Below, in pieces: positions 3,155-63,947 of a stretch of 64,000 bases of DNA. The notes beneath the pieces were generated by a model. The model saw only the letters and a list, made by a program, of their open reading frames with translations. It did no database searches and was not told the DNA's origin. The DNA is from a virus (taxonomy: Duplodnaviria > Caudoviricetes). Numbering within the stretch: position 1 is the stretch's first letter; every line of letters begins with the position of its first letter. The position numbers were made by a program, and so were the translations under genes. The stretch is from positions 1,041 to 65,040 of the IMG/VR virus record IMGVR_UViG_3300023084_000017, one strand, 5' to 3'.

Positions 3155-6100
3155 TTATAATACCACCAAACTTCCTTGAACATCTACAGTTCCTTGTATA
3201 TCTAAAGGACCAGCAGCAACAGTTCCTTCTGTTGAAGCGATTGTAAATGTTTCATTTGAATCCATTGTTAATTGATGTGTAAAGAAACCACCTCTAGCTG
3301 ACATAGAAACATTATTATCTATTGTTAATCTTTCTTGCCCATCAGTATCTACTCTAATAATATCTTCATCTGATGATTCTTCTACTTGAATTTTTGTATC
3401 ATTATCAGCGTCAGTTATTGAATTAGAGCTTAAACTTCCTACAGCAGTGTCTACATAAGCAGTAGTAGCTACATTAGTTGAGTTATCGCCTTGTGTTTGA
3501 GTTGCAGCTTTAAGAGATGCTTCAGTAAGAGTTAAGCTAGAAGAAGCTGAACCATCTGTTGCAGTTGTACCAGCTACCCAAGCATCTTCTGATTCATCCC
3601 AAACAAATGCTGCATTATCTCCAGTAGAACCTCTTTCTACTATCATTCCAGCATCTGTGGTCAATTCAGTACCATCAGCATTTAATTCAAATAATGTATC
3701 CGTTACTTTTAATTCATTAGCTTGTACAGAGTTACCAGTAACAGTTAAGTTAGTTATTGTTACACCAGAACTTGTTGCAGTTAATACATCTGTACCACCA
3801 GCTTTAATATAAACTGTATCGTTATCTGTAGTTCTTTCTACTTCTATAGAAGTATCAGCATCATTATCAGCGAAAGCTGTAACTGCTTGTTGTGTTGAAC
3901 CTAGTTGAATATTATCTGTAGTTCCATCGAAAGATGTAAATGGTATTGCACCAGCTACTGTTATATCTGATAATGTTATAGGGTCAGAAGTAGAACCAGC
4001 AAGTATAACTGGAAGACTTCCTCCACCACCACCAGAAGAAGTAAATGTTATTGTATCTGTACTTGCATCTGTGGTAATAGTCATACCTGTTCCAGCTGCA
4101 AGTGTTAAGGTATCTGTTTCAGAATCAGCTACAACATTTGATTGCCCAGAAACTGCTAAGGTTGAGAAAGCATTTGCTGCACCACCAGTTGCGGCTATTG
4201 TAATTGTATCTGTTGAAGCATCAGTAGTAAGAGTAATATTTGCACCAGCAGCAAAGTTAAGTGTATCTGTTGTACTATCTGGAACAACATCTGATTGTCC
4301 AGAAACTGCTATTGTTTGGAAATAATTAGTAGATGAAGCTACAGTACCCGGTTCAAATTCACTATTAGCAGCATTCCATACAAGTGCTTGTCCATCAGTA
4401 GGAGCAGCTGTTGTTATATCTACATCTGATAAATCTCCTATACTTGCAGCAGCAATTCTTGCGTCTGCTCTAGCATCTGTATAATAAAGATTTGTACCTT
4501 CTGTTAAATCTGTTGTAGTTTTTCCACTAAAGTCTGTATCAAATAATGAAGATGAATAATAAAGGTTAGTTGAACCTTCTGTTAAATTATCAGTTGTTTT
4601 TGTAGCTAATTGTGTATCAAATGTTGTATTAAAACTAGCAGTAACAGCTTGATTAGAAGCATTACCTATAAAAATATCTCCATCATCTAAGTTAGGTACT
4701 GCGTTACTTCTACCAGCACCTTGAACAAATATTGCACCATCTGTTGCGTGGCTTCTTGTTACCTTTGCAATCTTTTGTAGTGAAGCTGTTTCGCCAGTTG
4801 GAGCTGTATTTGTTAATATTCCAGTTGTAGATACATACAATTCATCACCCACTGAGAATGAGGAAGTGTCTAAACCTACAAATTTACCAAAAGTTAATAT
4901 TGATACTGCTGAATTATTAGTAGCTGAAGCAGTTGTTATACCAATTGCTGGCATTGTTCCAGAACCATCTGCATCTGCTGGTGCTACTGTAAATTCTGTT
5001 CCAGAACCAGATTGTCCAGATATATACACTGGTACACCTGCACCAATTGTAGAACCTGTTTCATTCTTACCAGATAGTATTATTGCACCATCAATATCTC
5101 CTGTTACATCACCTGTAACATTTCCAGTTAAGTTTCCAATAAATGTTTGAGCAACTAAGTCGTAAGCACCTACTGTCCATCTGTCATTGGCTTCATCCCA
5201 CAAGAAAGATACATTAGTACTTGTACCTCTTTCAATTTCAATACCACCATTCTGTGAAGGTGTTCCTGTTTCGTTTGAATTAAGAAGTATTGTGTTATCA
5301 GCTAAATTAATTGTTTCAGTATTAACAGTAGTTGTTGTTCCAGAAACAGTTAAGTTACCTGTAACAGTCAAATCATTTCCTATTGTTACATCACTTGGTA
5401 ATCCTATGGTTAATGAATCACCGCTAACAAGTACTTCTACTTCATTAGTTGTTCCATTAAATGTTAAAGTATCTGAATCAATAATTGTTGAAGTGTTAGA
5501 ACCATCAGATATTGTAAAGCTGGACATATTACCAACACCAACAGCACTATTTTCCCATTGCCCTGTTGAAGAGTTATAAACTAATGCTTCTCCATTTGAA
5601 GGGCTAGAAATTGTTGTATCTGTTAATGCAGATAATGTACTTGAAATATTACCCGGTTCCCAAACACTGTTTACACTATCCCAAACAAGAGCTTGACCAT
5701 TTGTAGGAGCAACACTTGAAGTATCTACATCGGATAGTTCATCAATACTAAGTGAATTAATGTTTTCTAAATATGTACCTAAATCTGTTATTTGAGATTC
5801 AGTAATACTTAATGCTGCTTCGTGCTGTGTAACAGATGTTTGTGTAATATTTGCGTCTGGTACATTTGCCCAAGTAACTGCGGCAGTTAAATCATTAGTT
5901 TCTGTAAAACTTGTTAAATATCCAGCAGCTGAATGGTCTCCCCATCCATAAGCAGTATCCCAGTTTGTAGAGTTATTAGTTGTTGTGTACCAACTAGAAG
6001 CTGTATATATTGGGTCTGTTTCTGTATAGCTTGTTAAGTAACCAGCTGAAGCATGGTCACCCCAACTATATGCTGTATCCCATTGACCGACTTTTGTATC

Positions 6101-43884: not shown

Positions 43885-45795
43885 ATGAAAGTATTGCAAT
43901 TGGCTGAGGCCAACGCAATTGCTGATGCACAACCCGACATCAATCATGCACCTAATTTTAGGTATGGTGATTATGACGGACTTGTGTTCCTATGTGACGT
44001 TAACGAAATCGTCACTCAAACACATATAAGTAACTGTGGTCAAACAGAATACTTGTATTCAATACTGGAACCTTATCTTCAATTATTTGATGATAAAGGT
44101 TATGACATACTTGATTGGATAGAAGAACTAGACAATCAAATGAATCAAGTAGCTAATTCCTTACACCTAAAGGACTGGGTCTTAACAAAAGAAACAGATT
44201 CTATTAACCAAGGTGTGATGATTGGTATTTACCAAATGGATACTACTGTATTCGGTGGTTATGCGAACCATGAGTGGCAAACCTACTTTACCAACAATGA
44301 TGGTAAGGTTACTAACTATGGTCGTCGTATGGCCATGGAGAAAAGTAGCAGTAGGTTCATGCCACTTCGTGACTTAGAACAGAACATTGGTGCTCGATAC
44401 ACTAAGTGTGTCATGTGTCAATGCTTCAACAAAGTCAGAACACACATGGTACCAATACGACATGCTAAGCCTGGTGCAAGGCAAGCTTGGAGCAACAGAA
44501 AGAATGTATGTATATCATGCATCAAGTATGTTGCCAAAGACCAACTTGTATCACAGAACAGACCAAATCTAAGATTGTGGCAAGGTTCAGTAGGATTCGA
44601 TGGCATAGACCAACTATTCTACAACCCTTCACGAGATGATTGGTCATGGAATGATACTTGGGGAACTGATGTATTCGAGAATGCAAATGCTGAATACAAA
44701 AGATTCTTCCGCAAGTTAGATGAAGATACCATCTTCAGAATCAGAATGATTGAACGAATTGATATTCCTAGATGGACATTTAGATTCGATACAACATTCC
44801 ACAATTGGAACTACAGGTTCCCTGTGAGATTAGTAGGAGTTAGAGAAGATGGATTGATAGAATCAGACAGTCCTGGTGGAAATTACCAAGATACTGATTG
44901 GTTCTACAACACAGGTCCTTACTATGGTATGGAGTTTGAATGCTTTGTCAGAAATGACAGAAGTGATTACAGAGATTCCAACATAGTAATGGAAGATACA
45001 ATCCGTATGTTCCACGATACTGATTATCCAAAGGCACATATGGAGTTCTATGATGGTGAGCATCAACTGTTGTACAGAAAACATGATGGTAGCTTAAGAG
45101 ATGGTATAGGAGTTGAGTTTGTATCTCAACCACTTAGCTATGACTACTGGATGAAAGAAATACCACAGAGATTCTGGGATTATTTCCAGAACAATTTCAG
45201 AGCTAGGAACTCTGAGGAATGTGGAATACACATTCATATTGGATGGGATAGTATGCAAGTTGCAGAACGTTATGTATTCCTTAAGATACTAAACGAGCTC
45301 AACAAGAAACGAAGCCCATTACTTGCAGCTATTGCAGGTAGAGATAGTACATACTATGCAACATGGAACACTCTGTTCTATCAAGGTAGTGCAGATACAG
45401 CATTCATGGTTGCAATGGAAAAGAAGCAGACAAGTCAGTCTTCTACTCCTAAGTACAATGCTATCAATACATTGCATGACAGCACTATAGAGTTGAGATA
45501 CTTTCAGGGTAATACAGGTAGAAAATCTATCTTAGGTATTGTCCAGTTTGTTGACTTAATCTACAGACATGCTGTTGATGTAATACATTCTGACACACAT
45601 AGTGAAGGTACTAGATGGGACTACTCGCAAGAAGGTCCACGTACATTCCTACAAAGTCAGTTAGACAAAATAAACAACAATGTGGATGAGTACTTACTAG
45701 ATGTACTCAGTAACTATCCGAACGACAGGATTAATTACTTAGTCCACAGATTAGAAATGGCAGACTACGAGTTGCCAGAAAACATAAACATATAA
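43885..45795 (+). CDS. Putative amidoligase (COOH-NH2 ligase, glutamine synthetase/GCS fold) with a long N-terminal region
   Basis: GMEFE..HDGSL..VEFVSQP..CGIHIH..KY.AIN..TIELRYF. Confidence 0.85.
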   Translation: MKVLQLAEANAIADAQPDINHAPNFRYGDYDGLVFLCDVNEIVTQTHISNCGQTEYLYSILEPYLQLFDDKGYDILDWIEELDNQMNQVANSLHLKDWVLTKETDSINQGVMIGIYQMDTTVFGGYANHEWQTYFTNNDGKVTNYGRRMAMEKSSSRFMPLRDLEQNIGARYTKCVMCQCFNKVRTHMVPIRHAKPGARQAWSNRKNVCISCIKYVAKDQLVSQNRPNLRLWQGSVGFDGIDQLFYNPSRDDWSWNDTWGTDVFENANAEYKRFFRKLDEDTIFRIRMIERIDIPRWTFRFDTTFHNWNYRFPVRLVGVREDGLIESDSPGGNYQDTDWFYNTGPYYGMEFECFVRNDRSDYRDSNIVMEDTIRMFHDTDYPKAHMEFYDGEHQLLYRKHDGSLRDGIGVEFVSQPLSYDYWMKEIPQRFWDYFQNNFRARNSEECGIHIHIGWDSMQVAERYVFLKILNELNKKRSPLLAAIAGRDSTYYATWNTLFYQGSADTAFMVAMEKKQTSQSSTPKYNAINTLHDSTIELRYFQGNTGRKSILGIVQFVDLIYRHAVDVIHSDTHSEGTRWDYSQEGPRTFLQSQLDKINNNVDEYLLDVLSNYPNDRINYLVHRLEMADYELPENINI

Positions 45796-45808
45796 AGAAA
45801 GGAAATAT

Positions 45809-46747
45809 ATGTGCGTAATAGCAAGCGTCCCTGCGACGAAAAACATAGATAACAATACCCTTGACCAAATGTGGAAGAGAAACCCAGATGGTGGAGGTAT
45901 TGCTTGGATAGATGAGAATGGAAAGGTTCAAGTCTACAAGACAATGAAACTCAAGAGCTTCAAGCAGAAGTTCAAAGAGGTGGTAGCTAAGTATGGTAAG
46001 TCAGACATACTTGTACACATGAGAATAGCAACTCATGGTTCTGTATGTATTGATAACAACCATCCATTCCACATCGACCCTAATACGGTCTTTGCACACA
46101 ATGGAATCATGCCTAGTGAGTTCCATCCACCTGCTAAGTCAGATATGTCTGATACAAGATACTTCAATCAAGTATTCTTGCAGAATGTCAAGCCGACTGC
46201 ATTTGATGATGAGCAGTTCAGAACAGCACTTGGAGATATCGTAGGCTTCAACAAGCTAGTGATACTCTCAGCCAACAAGAGACTGAAGAAAGAATCGTAC
46301 ATTATCAATGAGCATATGGGTTCATGGGAGAAAGGTGTTTGGTATTCCAATACACATCACAAACCATACAAGAAACCTACAAGCATAATCGGCAGCACAA
46401 CTATACAGCCAAGGTTGTTAGACACAACTGAGGATGCATGCTTCATCAATGAAGATACTGGTGACATCTGGTATGAAGATGCTCATGACATTATTTACTC
46501 AGAGTTTATACCTGAGGATATGTTAGATGATGTTGAGTTGCAGGACAAGATAACAGTAATGCTAGAAAATTCAGTGATGGATTACTACACAGTAGATGAC
46601 CTAATCATTGACTATGCATTACAGTTTGTTCCTGAGACCAAGTCATTCCAATGTGAAGAATGTGGAGCAGAGGTTGACGACAAGCTTAAGAGAGCATGTA
46701 ACAAAGAATGTGAGTGTCAATACTTACAAGAAATGACAAGGAGGTAA
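45809..46747 (+). CDS. Class II (Ntn) glutamine amidotransferase
   Basis: Cys2 nucleophile (MCVI), NPDG.G, H.RIATHG, N.HPF, HNG, SDT motifs; C-terminal Cys cluster. Confidence 0.9.
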   Translation: MCVIASVPATKNIDNNTLDQMWKRNPDGGGIAWIDENGKVQVYKTMKLKSFKQKFKEVVAKYGKSDILVHMRIATHGSVCIDNNHPFHIDPNTVFAHNGIMPSEFHPPAKSDMSDTRYFNQVFLQNVKPTAFDDEQFRTALGDIVGFNKLVILSANKRLKKESYIINEHMGSWEKGVWYSNTHHKPYKKPTSIIGSTTIQPRLLDTTEDACFINEDTGDIWYEDAHDIIYSEFIPEDMLDDVELQDKITVMLENSVMDYYTVDDLIIDYALQFVPETKSFQCEECGAEVDDKLKRACNKECECQYLQEMTRR

Positions 46748-46748
46748 C

Positions 46749-47138
46749 GTGGTAGTTCCTGACTGGAATAGAGTAGGTTCGCAAGAGCCTACTCAATCTA
46801 TTGGTAACAACGAGTCATATCCTTTATATCAGAGAGAAGAAGATGATATAGAAAATAGACGAGTAAGAATAACAACTGAACATGTAGGTAGAGTAACTTA
46901 CACAGAGAATGGTTATACAACTTATAACATGAGTGAAGTACTTGACTATGCAGTTGAAGTGGGATACTTAGGTTCCACTGACAGACTAGCTGGTAACCTA
47001 CCTTTAGATAACGTATTGAGAGAGTGGGCTCAAGAATTATTTGAAGAGAATTGGGATATTGACGATTATGAAAACTACGAAACTGGTGATGATTATGAAC
47101 AACAAGATTCATACATCGAAGACGTAGAAATTATATAA
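46749..47138 (+). CDS. Acidic PxWN-family protein 1
   Basis: Starts MVVPDWNR; GGAGG RBS; Asp/Glu/Tyr-rich. Confidence 0.7.
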   Translation: MVVPDWNRVGSQEPTQSIGNNESYPLYQREEDDIENRRVRITTEHVGRVTYTENGYTTYNMSEVLDYAVEVGYLGSTDRLAGNLPLDNVLREWAQELFEENWDIDDYENYETGDDYEQQDSYIEDVEII

Positions 47139-47152
47139 GAAAGGAGATTACA

Positions 47153-48223
47153 TTGGACGACCAACGTAAATCAGAAATCAAAAGAAAAATAACATACAAC
47201 ATGGACATGGATGTTCATGGATATGGTTACAAACCAAGCGTCTACTTTATTGGTAGAAACTTAGTGCAGTCTGCACTTGCAAGTAAGGAAGCTCAAGCAG
47301 AGCATGCATTCTTTACACTAGAAGGTCTGCCTATGGGTATGGAGTTGGAAGTTGAATACAGAAGAGATGTCTACTGTGACATTGAAGATGTAATTCATAC
47401 TATCAACAAGGAAGCTATGAGTAGAGCCTATGTAGATAGGTTCAATGAGTACGACAATGATGTTCTTACTCACCATACTGTATCACCAGTACAGTTCTTC
47501 ATAGCTAAGACTGACGGTTCACTAAGTGATGGTATTGAGTTTGTATCTCAACCAATGTCACTTGGTGTATGGAGAGACATACCATTGGTGTTCGAGGACT
47601 ACAATGATGTCTTTGCTGCATTCCACAGACGAACTACTGGATTGCACATTCATGTACCGAAAGCTGCATTTACAGATTCACATCTATTCACATGGATGTT
47701 GTTGATGCAGACACTTGGTAAAACAAGTATCAATCACAATACAACAGGCTCACTATTGTCCCTTATTGGTCAGAGAAGATTCAATAACTGGGCAAGGTTT
47801 GAACAACCAACAGTGAGTGCAGAAGTTAAATCTAAGTTAGCACAAGTTGCAATCGATAGAACGAATACTGATGGACAAAGATATAAGTATCTCAATCTAC
47901 ATCCGCAACACACAATAGAACTTAGGTTCTTCAAAGCTAACCTTAAGACAAATCGACTACTCAAGAACTTAGAGTTTGTCGATTCAACTTATGAATACAC
48001 AAAGATGCTTGACACAACTAAGGATAGTATGACAATACTAGACAGTGTGTTGAGTGCTAGTGATTGGTATGAGTACATTCAACAAGAGAAGTACTCAAAC
48101 TTAACAGAGTATCTAAGACCATACGAACACAGATTCGGTAGTCAATTAGATGCATTAGATACTAGATACGACTTGGACAATGAGTTTGACCAAGAAGTTC
48201 TAGCACATATGAAAGGAGAATAG
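47153..48223 (+). CDS. Second putative amidoligase
   Basis: GMELE..DGSL..IEFVSQP..GLHIH..RY..LN..TIELRFF. Confidence 0.85.
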   Translation: MDDQRKSEIKRKITYNMDMDVHGYGYKPSVYFIGRNLVQSALASKEAQAEHAFFTLEGLPMGMELEVEYRRDVYCDIEDVIHTINKEAMSRAYVDRFNEYDNDVLTHHTVSPVQFFIAKTDGSLSDGIEFVSQPMSLGVWRDIPLVFEDYNDVFAAFHRRTTGLHIHVPKAAFTDSHLFTWMLLMQTLGKTSINHNTTGSLLSLIGQRRFNNWARFEQPTVSAEVKSKLAQVAIDRTNTDGQRYKYLNLHPQHTIELRFFKANLKTNRLLKNLEFVDSTYEYTKMLDTTKDSMTILDSVLSASDWYEYIQQEKYSNLTEYLRPYEHRFGSQLDALDTRYDLDNEFDQEVLAHMKGE

Positions 48224-56491: not shown

Positions 56492-56863
56492 TCATTCTTC
56501 CTGCTCACTACTGAAGGTCCACTCTTCTTTTGCGTTAAACTTAGACCATACATCCCACTGTTTCATTGTTTCATCTCCATATTTAACACTCCATACTTTA
56601 TTCATATTTTTAATCTGCTCTTTAGATTGCTCATAATCTTTTCGACTATTGTTCCTACCAGTTGCATTAGCCCAATCAATTACGGTTTTAGTCTTCCATA
56701 ATTTAGTTCTACCTTTATTGATAGAAGCATCTGGCTTTGGTAACACATACCTTTGTTGCCATTGAGATACAGTAGAAGGTTTAACACCTAATACTTCTGC
56801 TATCTCATTAACTCCCAGTGGGTAATCCTCGAAAGAATATTCCTCTGCGTTTTGATTGCTCAT
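56492..56863 (-). CDS. HTH DNA-binding protein (excisionase/AlpA-like)
   Basis: G..EIAE.LGV...TV..W..R..LP.P......LW...V..W; likely start MSNQNA behind GGAGG. Confidence 0.7.
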   Translation of the reverse strand: MSNQNAEEYSFEDYPLGVNEIAEVLGVKPSTVSQWQQRYVLPKPDASINKGRTKLWKTKTVIDWANATGRNNSRKDYEQSKEQIKNMNKVWSVKYGDETMKQWDVWSKFNAKEEWTFSSEQEE

Positions 56864-57947
56864 TATTTCCTCCAATATATATTTTGTAAAATTCTTCTGG
56901 ACTCTTTTGATTGTATTTATCATACGAACAGTCCCATCTGTATTTATTAATAAATGATTGTGCATTATCAAATCTGCTACCGACTTCTTTAATACAGAAC
57001 CTACAATAATCAGTGACATGTGGTCTGTGTTGTGGATAAGGTCTTACTAAGTAATAATCCCAATAATCAACAGTGGTACAGCCTTCTGTTTTACATTCTT
57101 TGTTTACAGCTAAATCAAAGTCTATAAATTTTTGTTTTCTTTTCTTGTTCGACATTTGAAATCTTTCCATACATTGTCGACAGTTAGACTGAAGACCACC
57201 ACTTTGACGTTTAGATAAATCAAAATATCTCCTATGCTTTACGACTTTACAAGCTGTACATTTTTTTTCACTAGCAATTTTTGTTGGGTCGTATTCTTCT
57301 TTTCTTTTCTCATAGTAAGCACTCACTTGTGCAATACTACATTCTTTACAAGTTCTAGAATATCCATGTCTTGTCTTTTCAGAATTATGAAAATCTGCAA
57401 CTGGCAATGTTAATTTACATCTGTAACATTTTAAAGTTTCTGGATTGTCTAATTTATGTTCTCTTATTCTTATTGCTTCATCAAACATATCAGCAACTTT
57501 TTGATTCCTAATTTTCCAATACTGAACATAGTTCTCATTGACATCAACAAAAGCAAAAATACTCTTCATAGCAACGTAAGGTTTGTTAGCCAATATGTCT
57601 GTATACTCTTTTATCTTTTCAAAGTTTGGTGACTCACCATATGTAGAAATCATTCTATCCCTACCCATGTCTGTACCAAATGTTTTTTTATACAATATTC
57701 TTACGGCCTCTCTCGTTGTTTTGAAAACATCAGCCCAAGCTTGTATTGTATAATCGGGATAGATTTCAATTAAGACTTTAAATGTATCTGCATCGGGTAA
57801 TCTCTCATGTCTCATCTTGTGAATTGGACATATCATCATCTTCTTACTTAAAGATACTGAATCATCGTGTATCATTTCACAATCAATATAAAAATATTTA
57901 TATATTTCTTTTATTTGTTCGTCGTTAAATTGAGCCATTGCGGGCAT
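56808..57947 (-). CDS. HTH plus tandem Cys4 zinc-finger protein
   Basis: TREAVR helix; repeats C..C.......F......G....C..C. Confidence 0.7.
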   Translation of the reverse strand: MPAMAQFNDEQIKEIYKYFYIDCEMIHDDSVSLSKKMMICPIHKMRHERLPDADTFKVLIEIYPDYTIQAWADVFKTTREAVRILYKKTFGTDMGRDRMISTYGESPNFEKIKEYTDILANKPYVAMKSIFAFVDVNENYVQYWKIRNQKVADMFDEAIRIREHKLDNPETLKCYRCKLTLPVADFHNSEKTRHGYSRTCKECSIAQVSAYYEKRKEEYDPTKIASEKKCTACKVVKHRRYFDLSKRQSGGLQSNCRQCMERFQMSNKKRKQKFIDFDLAVNKECKTEGCTTVDYWDYYLVRPYPQHRPHVTDYCRFCIKEVGSRFDNAQSFINKYRWDCSYDKYNQKSPEEFYKIYIGGNNEQSKRRGIFFRGLPTGS

Positions 57948-59082: not shown

Positions 59083-59388
59083 ATGAACTATAGACCATTA
59101 CCAGACGAAGTAAGTATAAAGAAATCTAACATAGAAGGCTTAGGTTTGTTTAGTACTTGCGCAATAAAAGAAGGTAAGAACTTAGGTATGACTCACTATA
59201 AAGCACCAGAACTAGAGAATGGTTTATGTAGAACACCACTAGGTGGTTTTATAAATCACAGTGACACACCTAATTGTGAGTTGATAGGAATAGGAAAAGG
59301 TAAGTATTTAATTACATTAAAAGATATAATGCCAGACGAAGAGATAACTCTTGAATACACAATGTATAAAGTTGATAAGGTATTATAG
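59083..59388 (+). CDS. SET-domain protein (putative lysine methyltransferase)
   Basis: S.I.G.GLF..I..G..FINHS..PNC..DI...EEIT..Y. Confidence 0.9.
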   Translation: MNYRPLPDEVSIKKSNIEGLGLFSTCAIKEGKNLGMTHYKAPELENGLCRTPLGGFINHSDTPNCELIGIGKGKYLITLKDIMPDEEITLEYTMYKVDKVL

Positions 59389-62177: not shown

Positions 62178-62795
62178 ATGCCTAACTGGGTAGATAATAA
62201 GTTAACAATTGAAGCAGATAAACAAACAATAGATAATATTTTCAATAAGATTAAATCACAACAGTTAAATGATTCTAAAGTTTATCAAATAGCTTTGGGT
62301 TTATATCCAATGCCTAATGATATTACTTATGTCATGGGTACTGGTGGCAGTGAACAATATGCAGTATTGCAAGATAAAATTGTAAGGCCACCATCAGTTA
62401 CTAACCTTGTTGATAAAAATTATGATGAAAGATTAGAATTTGTAGACCTTACAGAAGTTCAGAAAAGAGATTTGAATGAAAAACATGGTGCTACTAATTG
62501 GTATGACTGGAATGTAAAAAACTATGGAACTAAGTGGGGTGACTGTAGAACAGAGTTGATTAATCACGAAGAGTCTAAATTGGAATTTGTGTTTGAATCC
62601 CCATGGAGTCATAGTGCGGTGTTAGCACAAAGAATATCAGAAGATTATAAAGCATCAGTGGAACTTAAGCATTACTCAATAGAGAATTGGGAGAAGGGTA
62701 TGTTCTTATTTGAAGAAGGTACTTTACATAAGTCTGAGTATGAATTACTTGGAGACCCCGATGAAGTATTAGTACCAGTGAGTGAAGAAGAGTAA
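62178..62795 (+). CDS. YubB/Api92-like ferredoxin-fold protein (DUF1281-like)
   Basis: MPNW..N.L...WYDW....YGTKW...F...WS. Confidence 0.75.
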   Translation: MPNWVDNKLTIEADKQTIDNIFNKIKSQQLNDSKVYQIALGLYPMPNDITYVMGTGGSEQYAVLQDKIVRPPSVTNLVDKNYDERLEFVDLTEVQKRDLNEKHGATNWYDWNVKNYGTKWGDCRTELINHEESKLEFVFESPWSHSAVLAQRISEDYKASVELKHYSIENWEKGMFLFEEGTLHKSEYELLGDPDEVLVPVSEEE

Positions 62796-62840
62796 TACAG
62801 ATGATGGGTAAAGTTTCTAGTAGAATAGTAGGTAGCTTTA

Positions 62841-62898
62841 GGGCGGTATGTTTCGCCACGGGGTTCGCCTCCTTTCCTCGGGGAATTTTATACCGCCC
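62841..62898 (+). ncRNA. Hairpin RNA displaying anti-SD CCUCCUUU in its apical loop
   Basis: GGGCGGTAT/ATACCGCCC stem, inner CGGGG/CCTCG, loop TTCGCCTCCTTT. Confidence 0.5.
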
Positions 62899-62911
62899 AT
62901 CTTTATTTTTA

Positions 62912-62990
62912 GGGGGTGACAGGGATAGACTTATTGTTTTGCGGGACAGCGTTACAAGAAGTAACTGGGGTTCAATTCCCCACACCTCCA
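62912..62990 (+). ncRNA. tmRNA-like tRNA(Ala)-mimic domain lacking the mRNA-like domain
   Basis: Acceptor stem GGGGGTG/CACCTCC-A with G3.U70; stemless D-loop ending GAC; T-arm TGGGG-TTCAATT-CCCCA. Confidence 0.65.
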
Positions 62991-63030
62991 CTAATATCAC
63001 GCGAGTGATATAATGTTTCATAAAGAAAAT

Positions 63031-63089
63031 GGGGAGGTTGAAGTTCATACAGAAGTTGTCCTCTGTGTGGTCTCCTTTCTAACCTCTCT
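63031..63089 (+). ncRNA. Hairpin RNA containing GUCUCCUUUCUA (anti-SD)
   Basis: GGGGAGGTTG/TAACCTCTCT and CATACAGA/TCTGTGTG stems; TGnTATAAT at 63006-63014. Confidence 0.45.
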
Positions 63090-63123
63090 ATCTTCCTTTG
63101 TGTAACATACAGCTATCTGTAAT

Positions 63124-63561
63124 GCAGGTAGCTTGAACTGAAAGGTGCACTCCGTTAAAAGCGGACTCTTGCGAATGCATCGTTCGGTTCAAGGTACTTG
63201 CTTATAAGAATTTGTAAGTACTTGGCTACTGAAGAATAGGGTAATACCCAACAAGTAGGTAGCTTGTAGCACATAGCAGAGTTAAAGGTCTGCAGACACT
63301 TTAAACGATTGCTAAAAACTGTTGTGTGTTACAAGCTATCTATTAGTTCAGAACCATATTGGGATTGAAGTTGTAATGACTGAAAGTTTCAAGTCAGTAT
63401 GGATTAGTAGGTAGCTTGTAGCACATAGGACAATGGGTGTTATTACACGACTTAAATGCGTGGCATTGAAATAATATGCGACCCTCTCTGATAACATCAA
63501 TGAGTGGTTATCGCTTCACTGATAACATCATTAGATGTCTTGTGTGTTACAAGCTATCTAT
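63124..63561 (+). repeat. Array of long hairpins with conserved arms and variable interiors
   Basis: Units at 63124-63201, 63255-63343 and 63407-63561; the last two share an identical 23-nt 5' arm and 22-nt 3' arm. Confidence 0.75.
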
Positions 63562-63572
63562 AAGGAGAAATA

Positions 63573-63947
63573 GTGGAAGAATTAAAACACAATTTATTTG
63601 TGTATGGAACATTAAGAGAAGGTCAATCGCGTAACAATGTGTTTCGTGATGCAGAATATATAGGTGTCAGGAAGACCAAACCTCATTACACAATGTATAG
63701 TCTTGGTGCGTTCCCTGCGTTATCAACTCTTGGTAATACAGAAATAGTTGGAGATGTATATAAAGTATCTGATTACACATTAGAATTGTGCGATATGATT
63801 GAGGGACACCCTAGTTTTTACCAGAGATTACCTATTGAATTGCAAGATGAGTCTATAGAAGAACCATTTGCATACTTTATTGTAAATAGAAATTGGTCTG
63901 GACACGCAAAGATTGATAGTGGTAATTGGGTAAAGGAACTCATATAG
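63573..63947 (+). CDS. Gamma-glutamylcyclotransferase (AIG2-like)
   Basis: LFVYGTLR.G..FPAL..I.G.VY.V....L...D..EG.P..Y.R. Confidence 0.9.
   Translation: MEELKHNLFVYGTLREGQSRNNVFRDAEYIGVRKTKPHYTMYSLGAFPALSTLGNTEIVGDVYKVSDYTLELCDMIEGHPSFYQRLPIELQDESIEEPFAYFIVNRNWSGHAKIDSGNWVKELI

What the first reader, a model, noticed from the sequence alone, without database searches (positions are those of the whole stretch)
62912..62990. 79-nt mini-tmRNA: alanine-acceptor tRNA-like domain with no tag reading frame
The 5' end GGGGGTG-ACAGGGATAGAC and the 3' end TGGGG-TTCAATT-CCCCA-CACCTCC-A match tmRNA termini. There is a 7-bp acceptor stem with the G3.U70 AlaRS determinant and A73, a stemless D-loop ending GAC, a P2-like helix (CTTATTGT/ACAAGAAG) and a canonical T-arm. 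The roughly 270-nt pseudoknot/mRNA domain is replaced by about 16 nt, and CCA is not encoded. Both ends are present, so this is not an attP fragment. MLD-less tmRNAs are known from some protist mitochondria; I do not know of a characterised phage example. It could sequester SmpB, rescue ribosomes without degradation tagging, or decoy tRNA-targeting defence nucleases.
Basis: partly seen in the sequence, partly recalled or inferred. Interest (0 to 1): 0.85.

Follow-up and report, generated by a model that had tools for sequence, protein, structure and literature searches.

The report
Tag-less mini-tmRNA gene in a phage
An uncultured 65-kb phage carries a conserved 79-base RNA gene that is only the tRNA-like end of the bacterial ribosome-rescue RNA (tmRNA), a rare form seen before in mycobacteriophage DS6A, where a similar molecule blocks the host's rescue system.

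Summary
Window 62912-62990 (+) matches the Rfam tmRNA model end to end (43.1 bits, cut-off 47, E 7e-16), with 310 interior model positions replaced by 26 nt. It does not match the tRNA model or ARAGORN.

It folds as a 7-bp acceptor stem with G3.U70 and A73, an unpaired D-loop, one central hairpin and a T-arm.

It is a conserved gene. Sixteen loci (10 distinct sequences) carry it, some in phages whose neighbouring proteins are only 39-55% identical. Four pairs show compensatory changes and G3.U70 is kept in 10 of 10. No relative has a full-length tmRNA at that place.

The kind is already known. Mycobacteriophage DS6A has a "TLD only" tmRNA (PMC4131195, PMC11915505), which scores 43.2 bits over 83 nt here.

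The best reading is an alanine-identity, SmpB-binding mimic that competes with host tmRNA. This function is inferred and was not tested.

A capped pattern scan of IMG/VR found many similar mini-tmRNAs. Of 50 records searched, 49 matched RF00023, and 28 of those scored above the cut-off. I found no paper describing that breadth.

Verdict: a new member of a known kind, of moderate interest.

The parts
62912..62990 (+). Mini-tmRNA (TLD-only), predicted mature RNA from G1 to discriminator A73
   Evidence: RF00023 end-to-end match over 62912-62993, 43.1 bits. Y-shaped MFE fold. Homology with relatives starts at G1 and ends about 3 nt after A73.
62912..62918 (+). Acceptor stem, 5' strand; G62914 is G3 of the G3.U70 pair
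   Evidence: 7 of 7 pairs with 62983-62989. Positions 4 and 5 covary with their partners, and G.U is kept in 10 of 10 distinct relatives.
62919..62928 (+). A8 plus a stemless D-loop containing GG and ending in GAC
   Evidence: Aligned to the tmRNA D-loop consensus by cmscan. Unpaired in the MFE fold.
62929..62962 (+). Central P2-like hairpin closed by loop GGGACA (62943-62948); it replaces the pseudoknot/mRNA domain
   Evidence: Fold. 91.9% of cells are paired across 10 relatives, with one-sided changes only. Variant 62951 G>A in RNA-library contigs turns a U.G pair into U-A.
62966..62982 (+). T-arm: 5-bp stem and 7-nt T-loop
   Evidence: Two of the five pairs show changes on both sides in relatives, and 100% of cells are paired.
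62983..62990 (+). Acceptor stem 3' strand (T62987 = U70) and discriminator A62990
62991..62993 (+). CTA tail in place of CCA; it reads C-N-A in 16 of 16 family loci
   Evidence: DS6A also reads CTA. Its meaning is unexplained.
62841..62911 (+). Upstream hairpin (62841-62898) followed by a T-rich run up to G1; terminator-like, probably ending the transcript of the 205-aa gene at 62178-62795
   Evidence: Read. Compensatory changes in L212. The consensus terminator scan did not list it, because its loop is too long for that scan's rule. The same arrangement occurs in L002, L003 and L199 but not in all family members.
62994..63011 (+). Small hairpin directly after the RNA (7-bp stem, GCGA loop); possible terminator or 3' processing block
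   Evidence: Fold. A C-G to U-A compensatory change in L212, L213, L216 and L218. Other family members have a different hairpin at the same place.
62829..63122 (+). Predicted long-range helix (62829-62837 with 63111-63119) that encloses the upstream hairpin, the mini-tmRNA and two downstream hairpins
   Evidence: Fold of 62815-63130: -111.1 kcal/mol, z -5.6, 0 of 100 shuffles fold as well. It is a prediction only, and is absent from the relative G015.

Best explanation
Window 62912-62990 is a gene for a tag-less mini-tmRNA. It is the tRNA-like domain (TLD) of tmRNA, with helix P2 closed by a short loop where the pseudoknots and tag reading frame would be.

Shown here:
- It matches tmRNA and not tRNA.
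- It has the alanine identity elements.
- It is conserved, with compensatory changes, across diverged phages.
- It has the same architecture as the DS6A TLD-only tmRNA.

Inferred:
- The precursor is cut at G1 by host RNase P.
- The 3' end is trimmed and completed to CCA by the host.
- Host AlaRS can charge it through G3.U70 and A73.
- Host SmpB binds it; the phage encodes no SmpB of its own.
- It then competes with the host's full-length tmRNA for SmpB, and for EF-Tu and stalled ribosomes if it is charged. During infection, SsrA tagging and tag-directed proteolysis would be blocked or bypassed.

I put the identity as a TLD-only tmRNA at about 0.9, and the competitor mechanism at about 0.5-0.6.
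For: - The RF00023 match runs end to end: 43.1 bits, E 7e-16.
- DS6A's published TLD-only tmRNA gives almost the same result here: 83 nt and 43.2 bits, also with a CTA tail.
- The relative G015 scores 49.2 bits, above the cut-off.
- On 10 distinct family sequences, the acceptor stem and T-arm are 100% paired. Four pairs change on both sides (11 cells). None of 500 shuffles reaches the observed covariation score. Only 46-59% of cells pair when partners are slid by 1-3 columns, against 95.9% as drawn. G3.U70 is kept in 10 of 10, although positions 4 and 5 beside it flip.
- A73 is present in all 16 loci.
- The RNA is retained where neighbouring proteins are only 39-55% identical.
- Homology begins exactly at G1 in three unrelated flank contexts.
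- The phage encodes no SmpB, and neither do 50 other mini-tmRNA-bearing virus records (0 of 50). Any SmpB partner must therefore be the host's.
- Literature, passages read. [quoted passage not shown] PMC3985003, figure legend: an engineered TLD of 25 + 34 residues joined by a tetraloop was crystallised with SmpB.
- Contigs from four metatranscriptomic libraries hold the element. One is an 81-nt contig spanning 62911-91 at depth 17.7, against 3.7 and 2.9 for its neighbours. This is a weak hint only.
Against: - Nothing was tested directly: not expression ends, CCA addition, alanylation, SmpB binding or any effect on tagging.
- The score is under Rfam's cut-off (43.1 against 47).
- The 3' tail reads C-N-A in 16 of 16 family loci and is never CCA. 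The mature RNA might therefore be uncharged, or might need repair.
- The RNA-library contigs cannot prove transcription or RNA ends. The element lies in several genomic contexts, so an assembly graph would break at its borders anyway.
- The 3' strand of the central hairpin was fixed by my search pattern, so its sequence conservation is partly built in.
- The host is unknown.
- Why a lytic phage would gain from blocking trans-translation is not established.
Confidence: 0.55

Rival explanations
1. It is a tag-less rescue RNA rather than an inhibitor. Ala-TLD with host SmpB enters stalled ribosomes and accepts the nascent chain. The ribosome is then freed without tag translation, by drop-off or host hydrolases. 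Ribosomes stranded on mRNAs cleaved during infection would be recycled quickly, and products would not be marked for proteolysis.
For: It rests on the same structural evidence as the best explanation. PMC11915505 (passage read) argues that CDS-less organellar tmRNAs that co-occur with SmpB still help with incomplete mRNAs. Strict retention of G3.U70 and A73 fits a need for charging, which a pure SmpB sponge would not have.
Against: The phage encodes no release-factor-like ArfB domain and no peptidyl-tRNA hydrolase to resolve a peptidyl-TLD. The only experimental analogue cited (PMC4131195, PMC11915505) was inhibitory. The non-CCA tail is conserved.
Confidence: 0.2
2. It is a decoy or ligand for another factor that recognises tRNA or tmRNA acceptor and elbow shapes. 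Candidates are RNase R (whose stability and localisation depend on tmRNA-SmpB), acceptor-end-modifying toxins, or defence nucleases.
For: PMC11662646 (passages read) shows a staphylococcal phage anti-CRISPR protein that carries tRNA and ~90-nt tmRNA fragments, and these bind RNase R. The near-invariant central hairpin and its GGGACA/GGGACG loop hint at a sequence-specific partner.
Against: There is no anticodon loop, so it cannot be a decoy for anticodon nucleases. No conserved partner gene was seen beside it, and the flanking genes differ between G015 and the window. The hairpin's conservation is partly imposed by my search pattern.
Confidence: 0.12
3. It is a tRNA-like punctuation mark. RNase P and RNase Z cut at the structure to mature a long structured non-coding transcript, as with mascRNA at the 3' end of MALAT1. 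The small RNA itself would be a by-product.
For: In this phage it lies inside a ~780-nt ORF-poor, highly structured region and is enclosed by a predicted long-range helix. There is a weak match to the mascRNA model: 21.3 bits, E 0.09.
Against: In relatives it lies between ordinary protein genes, without that structured region. Keeping G3.U70 while neighbouring pairs flip, and tmRNA-type D-loop features, go beyond what RNase P recognition needs.
Confidence: 0.08
4. It is a decaying remnant: a tmRNA pseudogene after an internal deletion, a degenerate tRNA-Ala, or an attP core.
For: The score is below the Rfam cut-off and CCA is not encoded.
Against: It is kept, with compensatory changes, in 16 loci from diverged phages. 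Among 30 related records, none has a full-length tmRNA. The tRNA model finds nothing. Both ends are present and there is no integrase.
Confidence: 0.03

Closest known systems
TLD-only tmRNA of Mycobacterium phage DS6A (Hudson, Lau and Williams 2014, PMC4131195; 2025 database paper, PMC11915505)
   Same: Both are phage-borne. Both match RF00023 end to end with the interior missing (83 nt at 43.2 bits, against 82 nt at 43.1 bits). Both have a 7-bp acceptor stem with G3.U70, a stemless D-loop, one central hairpin, a T-arm and a CTA tail. Neither is annotated or found by default tools.
   Different: The phage lineage and host are unrelated: an actinobacteriophage of high G+C against an uncultured salt-marsh/marine phage of 36% G+C. 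The central hairpin sequences differ, so the two may have arisen independently. I did not test common descent.
CDS-less tmRNAs of jakobid mitochondria and Mallomonadaceae plastids (described in PMC11915505; passage read)
   Same: A tRNA-like domain without a tag reading frame, of similar size (~65 bp for the plastid forms).
   Different: Those are organellar genes that replace the only tmRNA of the compartment and work with an imported SmpB. Here the RNA is an extra copy brought by a virus into a cell that presumably has its own full tmRNA.
Engineered TLD fragments (a crystallised TLD-SmpB complex mentioned in PMC3985003; the inhibitory TLD-like molecule of Mao et al. 2009 as cited in PMC4131195; Mao 2009 itself is not held)
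   Same: The same design: the 5' ~25 and 3' ~34 residues of tmRNA joined by a short loop. Such fragments bind SmpB and inhibit tmRNA.
   Different: Those are laboratory constructs cut from bacterial tmRNA. This one is a natural, evolving gene with a longer central hairpin (34 nt).
Full-length phage tmRNAs (Bxz1-type mycobacteriophages and Bacillus phage G in PMC4131195; Cellulophaga phage Calle_1, annotated at 360 nt; Gordonia phage Sixama, 422 nt at 88.1 bits)
   Same: Phage-encoded members of the tmRNA family with the same termini.
   Different: They keep the pseudoknots and the tag frame; this one has neither.

Membership tests
tmRNA (SsrA, Rfam RF00023) | tRNA-like domain: 7-bp acceptor stem with G3.U70, discriminator A73, T-arm, and a stemless D-loop with GG...GAC | tested here: met
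   G.U is kept in 10 of 10 relatives and the stems covary.
tmRNA (SsrA, Rfam RF00023) | Score at or above the curated gathering cut-off (47 bits) | tested here: not met
   43.1 bits for the window. The homologue in G015 reaches 49.2 bits.
tmRNA (SsrA, Rfam RF00023) | mRNA-like domain with a resume codon and a tag reading frame | tested here: not met
   310 model positions are replaced by 26 nt. ARAGORN reports no tmRNA or tag peptide, even at lowered thresholds.
tmRNA (SsrA, Rfam RF00023) | Pseudoknots PK1-PK4 | tested here: not met
   Only one hairpin lies between the D-loop and the T-arm.
tmRNA (SsrA, Rfam RF00023) | Alanylation by AlaRS and binding by SmpB and EF-Tu | not testable with these tools
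TLD-only (CDS-less) tmRNA, DS6A type | End-to-end tmRNA termini with the interior reduced to one hairpin, total about 60-85 nt | tested here: met
   82 nt at 43.1 bits, against 83 nt at 43.2 bits for DS6A with the same model.
TLD-only (CDS-less) tmRNA, DS6A type | A retained gene, not a fresh deletion: conserved in relatives with the mini form only | tested here: met
   All 16 loci carry the 78-80 nt form. 0 of 30 related records have a full-length tmRNA.
TLD-only (CDS-less) tmRNA, DS6A type | Inhibits host trans-translation | not testable with these tools
   Known only from the cited experiment with a similar molecule (PMC4131195, PMC11915505).
Canonical tRNA (tRNA-Ala) | Cloverleaf with a D-arm and a 7-nt anticodon loop; scores with tRNA models | tested here: not met
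   RF00005 gives no match at E <= 10 in the whole record. ARAGORN finds none. At an 80% threshold it reports only a 'tRNA-???' with a 2-nt anticodon.
attP core of a phage that integrates into ssrA | Only the 3' part of tmRNA, next to an integrase | tested here: not met
   Both termini are present. There is no tyrosine or serine recombinase. By contrast, the Arthrobacter phage BLAST hits beside integrases gave no RF00023 match.

The most novel reading that the evidence does not exclude
Mini-tmRNAs are a widespread class of phage-encoded small RNA that standard annotation misses, not a DS6A oddity. Acquired or evolved many times, they would take over or shut down the host's SmpB-dependent ribosome rescue during infection.

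In this family the conserved C-N-A 3' tail, which is never CCA, may mark a deliberately crippled acceptor end. Such an RNA would bind SmpB and perhaps the ribosome but could not complete peptidyl transfer. That would make it an RNA inhibitor of trans-translation.

Support: a row-capped IMG/VR scan gave 59 distinct non-tRNA candidates. 49 of the 50 records searched match RF00023 over 57-85 nt, 28 of them above the cut-off. These records range from 4 to 231 kb and none encodes SmpB.
Probability: 0.35. Interest if true: 0.75.

Novelty: new member of a known kind. Interest (0 to 1): 0.5.

Why it matters
Trans-translation is the main ribosome-rescue and protein-tagging pathway of bacteria. How phages deal with it is poorly known.

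A natural RNA that contains only the SmpB- and AlaRS-recognition module of tmRNA offers a simple test of whether phages switch off or bypass tagging. It is conserved under selection in an uncultured phage lineage, and similar RNAs occur in many other viral contigs.

There is also a practical point. ARAGORN and Rfam at default thresholds miss this gene, and GenBank leaves the DS6A copy unannotated. The class is therefore likely under-counted.

For this single locus the finding is incremental, because the kind was described in 2009-2014.

Tried and rejected
**Host identification failed.**
- The 3' 24-mer plus CCA occurs in only 3 bacterial MAGs, of unrelated phyla.
- A 5' D-loop pattern gave 26 scattered hits, and none was a mini-tmRNA by my acceptor/T-loop check.
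- The major capsid protein is at most 35% identical to any cultured phage.
- The Rad52-like protein has no match in the phage collection, and neither does 1.2 kb of DNA around the element.

**Relatives.** A search with the upstream 205-aa protein found none. The same-length ORF upstream in G015 is unrelated.

**BLAST of the element against cultured phages** gave only 3'-half hits.
- Those in Arthrobacter phages lie beside integrases and do not match RF00023, so they are likely attP cores.
- The Gordonia Sixama hit is a full-length tmRNA.
- So no cultured phage other than DS6A was found to carry a mini form.

**Weak permuted-tmRNA match.** The match at 62966-63042 (24.3 bits, E 0.0056) depends on a downstream GGAGG-rich stretch. 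That stretch is not conserved in L212, so I rejected it.

**Terminator scan.** The consensus scan listed neither the upstream hairpin nor the small hairpin at 62994-63011.

**RNA-library contigs.**
- Contigs of two studies start at 62911, and upstream contigs stop at 62832-62857.
- I treat this only as a weak hint of separate transcripts. No DNA run was laid, and strain mixtures break assemblies at the same place.
- The uncovered stretch of about 62858-62910 proves nothing.

**Unavailable sources.**
- Mao et al. 2009 is not held, so its experiment is cited second-hand.
- Supplementary files were not consulted. The tmRNA database tables of PMC11915505 may list further phage TLD-only entries that I could not see.

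**Literature searches.** Searches for a description of widespread phage mini-tmRNAs found only the DS6A statements. The huge-phage paper PMC7162821 mentions phage tmRNAs and SmpB found with ARAGORN, but no tag-less forms (passages read).

Full report
**Setting.** The window is bases 1041-65040 of a 65,040-bp IMG/VR virus record that CheckV rates 100% complete. It is a tailed phage of about 36% G+C.
- HK97-type capsid, protease, portal and large-terminase genes lie on the minus strand.
- An early/replication module lies on the plus strand at 58-64 kb. It holds a replication initiator, a Rad52-like annealing protein and a SET-domain protein.
- ARAGORN finds no tRNA or tmRNA in the window.
- The record has no integrase, SmpB, RF-1/ArfB domain, peptidyl-tRNA hydrolase or CCA-adding enzyme.
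- DNA-holding public runs are mostly salt-marsh metagenomes. No cultured phage is close; the capsid protein is at most 35% identical.

**The observation.**
- Rfam's default scan is silent.
- With E-value reporting, the tmRNA model RF00023 aligns from its first to its last position (1-374). It scores 43.1 bits against a cut-off of 47, with E 7.2e-16. Twenty-six nucleotides stand in for 310 interior model positions.
- The tRNA model RF00005 finds nothing in the whole record at E <= 10.
- ARAGORN stays silent until its threshold is lowered to 80%. It then reports only a 'tRNA-???' with a two-base anticodon.
- The MFE fold is a Y: a 7-bp acceptor stem, an unpaired D-loop, one central hairpin with a 6-nt loop, and a T-arm. 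Energy is -27.1 kcal/mol and z is -2.3.
- The same fold forms inside a 316-nt context.
- G3.U70 (G62914.T62987) and A73 (A62990) are present, and CTA follows instead of CCA.

**Is it a real, selected gene?**

*Relatives by capsid protein.* A capsid-protein search found 187 related viral contigs, of which 80 were kept. I searched the 30 longest with RF00023. One of them (G015) has an 83-nt match at 49.2 bits, and none has a full-length tmRNA.

*Relatives by pattern.* A pattern taken from the 3' half of the element found 14 metagenome contigs.

*The family.* Together with G015 and the window, all 16 loci carry a complete 78-80 nt element, giving 10 distinct sequences.

*Covariation.* I counted pairs on their alignment with the structure I specified.
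- The acceptor stem and T-arm are 100% paired.
- Four pairs change on both sides (11 cells): acceptor positions 4 and 5, and the two outer T-stem pairs.
- G3.U70 is G.U in 10 of 10.
- None of 500 shuffles reaches the covariation score.
- Sliding the partners by 1-3 columns drops pairing from 95.9% to 46-59%.
- The central helix is 91.9% paired and shows one-sided changes only. Its 3' strand was fixed by my search pattern, so its sequence conservation is partly built in.

*Conservation relative to neighbours.* The element persists where flanking proteins have diverged strongly: replication initiator 52-55%, GGACT protein 39-41%, Rad52-like 76-86% identity.
- In most of these phages it lies between the Rad52-like gene, or small genes after it, and the GGACT gene.
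- In G015 it lies elsewhere, between unrelated genes.
- Sequence similarity between subfamilies begins at G1 and ends three bases after A73.
- A metatranscriptome contig with a different upstream flank matches only 62911-62994.
- So the conserved unit is the RNA, not either of the two ORFs that overlap it (62801-63013 on the plus strand, 62665-63048 on the minus strand).

**What is known.**
- Hudson, Lau and Williams list 'Mycobacterium phage DS6A (TLD only)'. They state that the sequence is little more than the TLD, and that a similar molecule, chargeable or not, strongly inhibits tmRNA, perhaps by titrating SmpB (PMC4131195, passages read).
- The 2025 database paper repeats that the DS6A form was shown to inhibit endogenous tmRNA in E. 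coli. It also reports CDS-less tmRNAs in some plastids, besides the mitochondrial ones (PMC11915505, passages read).
- I located the DS6A element with the same model. It is 83 nt, scores 43.2 bits and has a CTA tail. GenBank does not annotate it. This is practically the same result as for the window.
- A figure legend in PMC3985003 notes that an engineered TLD (25 + 34 residues joined by a tetraloop) was crystallised with SmpB. The phage RNA has that design.
- The original experiment (Mao et al. 2009) is not held.

**Mechanism.**

*Shown:* tmRNA-type termini, alanine identity elements kept under selection, and no phage SmpB.

*Inferred from established tmRNA biology:* 5' processing by RNase P, 3' trimming and CCA addition by host enzymes, charging by AlaRS, and binding by host SmpB.

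The experimentally grounded outcome is competition with host tmRNA. I take that as the best explanation, at about 0.55. The rivals:
- Tag-less rescue, at about 0.2. The strict retention of charging determinants fits it. The lack of any release function in the phage counts against it.
- A decoy or ligand for another tRNA/tmRNA-binding factor such as RNase R. A staphylococcal phage anti-CRISPR uses tRNA and tmRNA fragments that bind RNase R (PMC11662646, passages read).
- A tRNA-like processing signal.
- A decaying remnant. This is nearly excluded.

**An unexplained detail.** In all 16 family loci the three bases after A73 read C-N-A (CTA 10 times, CAA 6 times) and never CCA, although sequence beyond them is unrelated between subfamilies. 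DS6A also reads CTA. This may only reflect the route of 3' maturation, or the acceptor end may be deliberately imperfect.

**Expression.** Six metatranscriptomic runs hold part of the region, and I laid four.
- All four have contigs over the element.
- One run has an 81-nt contig covering exactly 62911-62991 at depth 17.7, with neighbouring contigs at 3.7 and 2.9.
- A second run, from another study, has a contig that starts at 62911.
- These are assembled contigs from mixed strains. They may include DNA carry-over, and they cannot show RNA ends. I count this as a weak hint only.
- The variant 62951 G>A, seen in two runs, converts a U.G pair of the central stem to U-A.

**Breadth of the class.**
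- In those loci, plus L003, L199 and the window, with the spacer widened to 15-60 nt, 78 matches have 7 of 7 acceptor pairs.
- ARAGORN of the 78 tRNAs. The remaining 69 reduce to 59 distinct sequences.
- The pattern fixes four acceptor pairs. By my calculation, about 7% of chance matches would complete the other three.
- The two T-stem pairs left free by the pattern are standard in 59 of 59. Forty-two of 59 fold as the Y shape, and 22 of 59 encode CCA.
Forty-nine match at E <= 0.01. The best match in 28 of them is above the cut-off, at up to 78 bits. The stronger hits, including all those above the cut-off, are 57-85 nt long and span the whole model.
- The records range from 4 to 231 kb. Eight are at least 90% complete. 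None encodes SmpB (0 of 50).
- My literature searches found no paper describing this breadth. The supplementary tables of the tmRNA database paper, which I could not open, may list more phage entries.

**Verdict.** It is a new member of a known but little-studied kind, the DS6A-type TLD-only tmRNA. It is under clear purifying selection in an uncultured phage lineage. Its function is inferred by analogy and remains untested. The single locus is of moderate interest. The apparent abundance of such genes in viral metagenomes is the more novel lead.

Noticed in passing
window 62796-63572 (+): A ~780-nt ORF-poor region. It has four copies of (G)TAGGTAGCTT(G): 5 matches in the window against 0.71 expected. 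Each is paired with a downstream CAAGCTATCT-type arm, forming long hairpins. By my reading, five of the six mismatches in the one stem I compared by hand (I1) are G.T on the plus strand, which suggests RNA-level structure. There are no Rfam matches. Strains differ in copy number, with joints that skip 152, 265 and 339 nt. RNA-library contigs at depth 70-94 share the motif and 63341-63427. This may be a family of abundant structured phage sRNAs or processing stems.
   Followed up: partly
window 43885-48223 and 63573-63947 (+): Two amidoligase-like proteins, a class-II glutamine amidotransferase-like protein and a GGACT (gamma-glutamyl cyclotransferase-like) protein. The set recalls phage peptide- or base-modification modules. 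The GGACT gene is the usual downstream neighbour of the mini-tmRNA in relatives.
   Followed up: no
window 59083-59388 (+) and 56808-57947 (-): A small SET-domain protein (E 1.4e-9) and a protein with an Stc1 domain (E 1.5e-7) in the early region.
   Followed up: no
L223 209-630 (Gordonia phage Sixama, MN484601): A full-length tmRNA (422 nt, 88.1 bits) lies unannotated inside the phage's tRNA cluster. A sub-threshold YrlA (Y RNA-like) match lies at 1115-1213, scoring 46.8 bits against a cut-off of 69.
   Followed up: no
L206 1501-1583 (Mycobacterium phage DS6A, JN698994 28478-28560): The published TLD-only tmRNA of DS6A has no feature in the GenBank record. It lies between gp33 and gp34.
   Followed up: yes
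L082 about 5055-5303 (-), IMG/VR record G069: Three adjacent ~78-nt RF00023-like matches (34.3, 25.3 and 32.2 bits) lie in tandem. Two of them have 7 of 7 acceptor pairs. This may be an array of mini-tmRNA-like genes.
   Followed up: no
window 62991-62993 and the same place in L199, L208-L221: The tail after the discriminator reads C-N-A in 16 of 16 loci and is never CCA, although the sequence beyond it is unrelated.
   Followed up: partly
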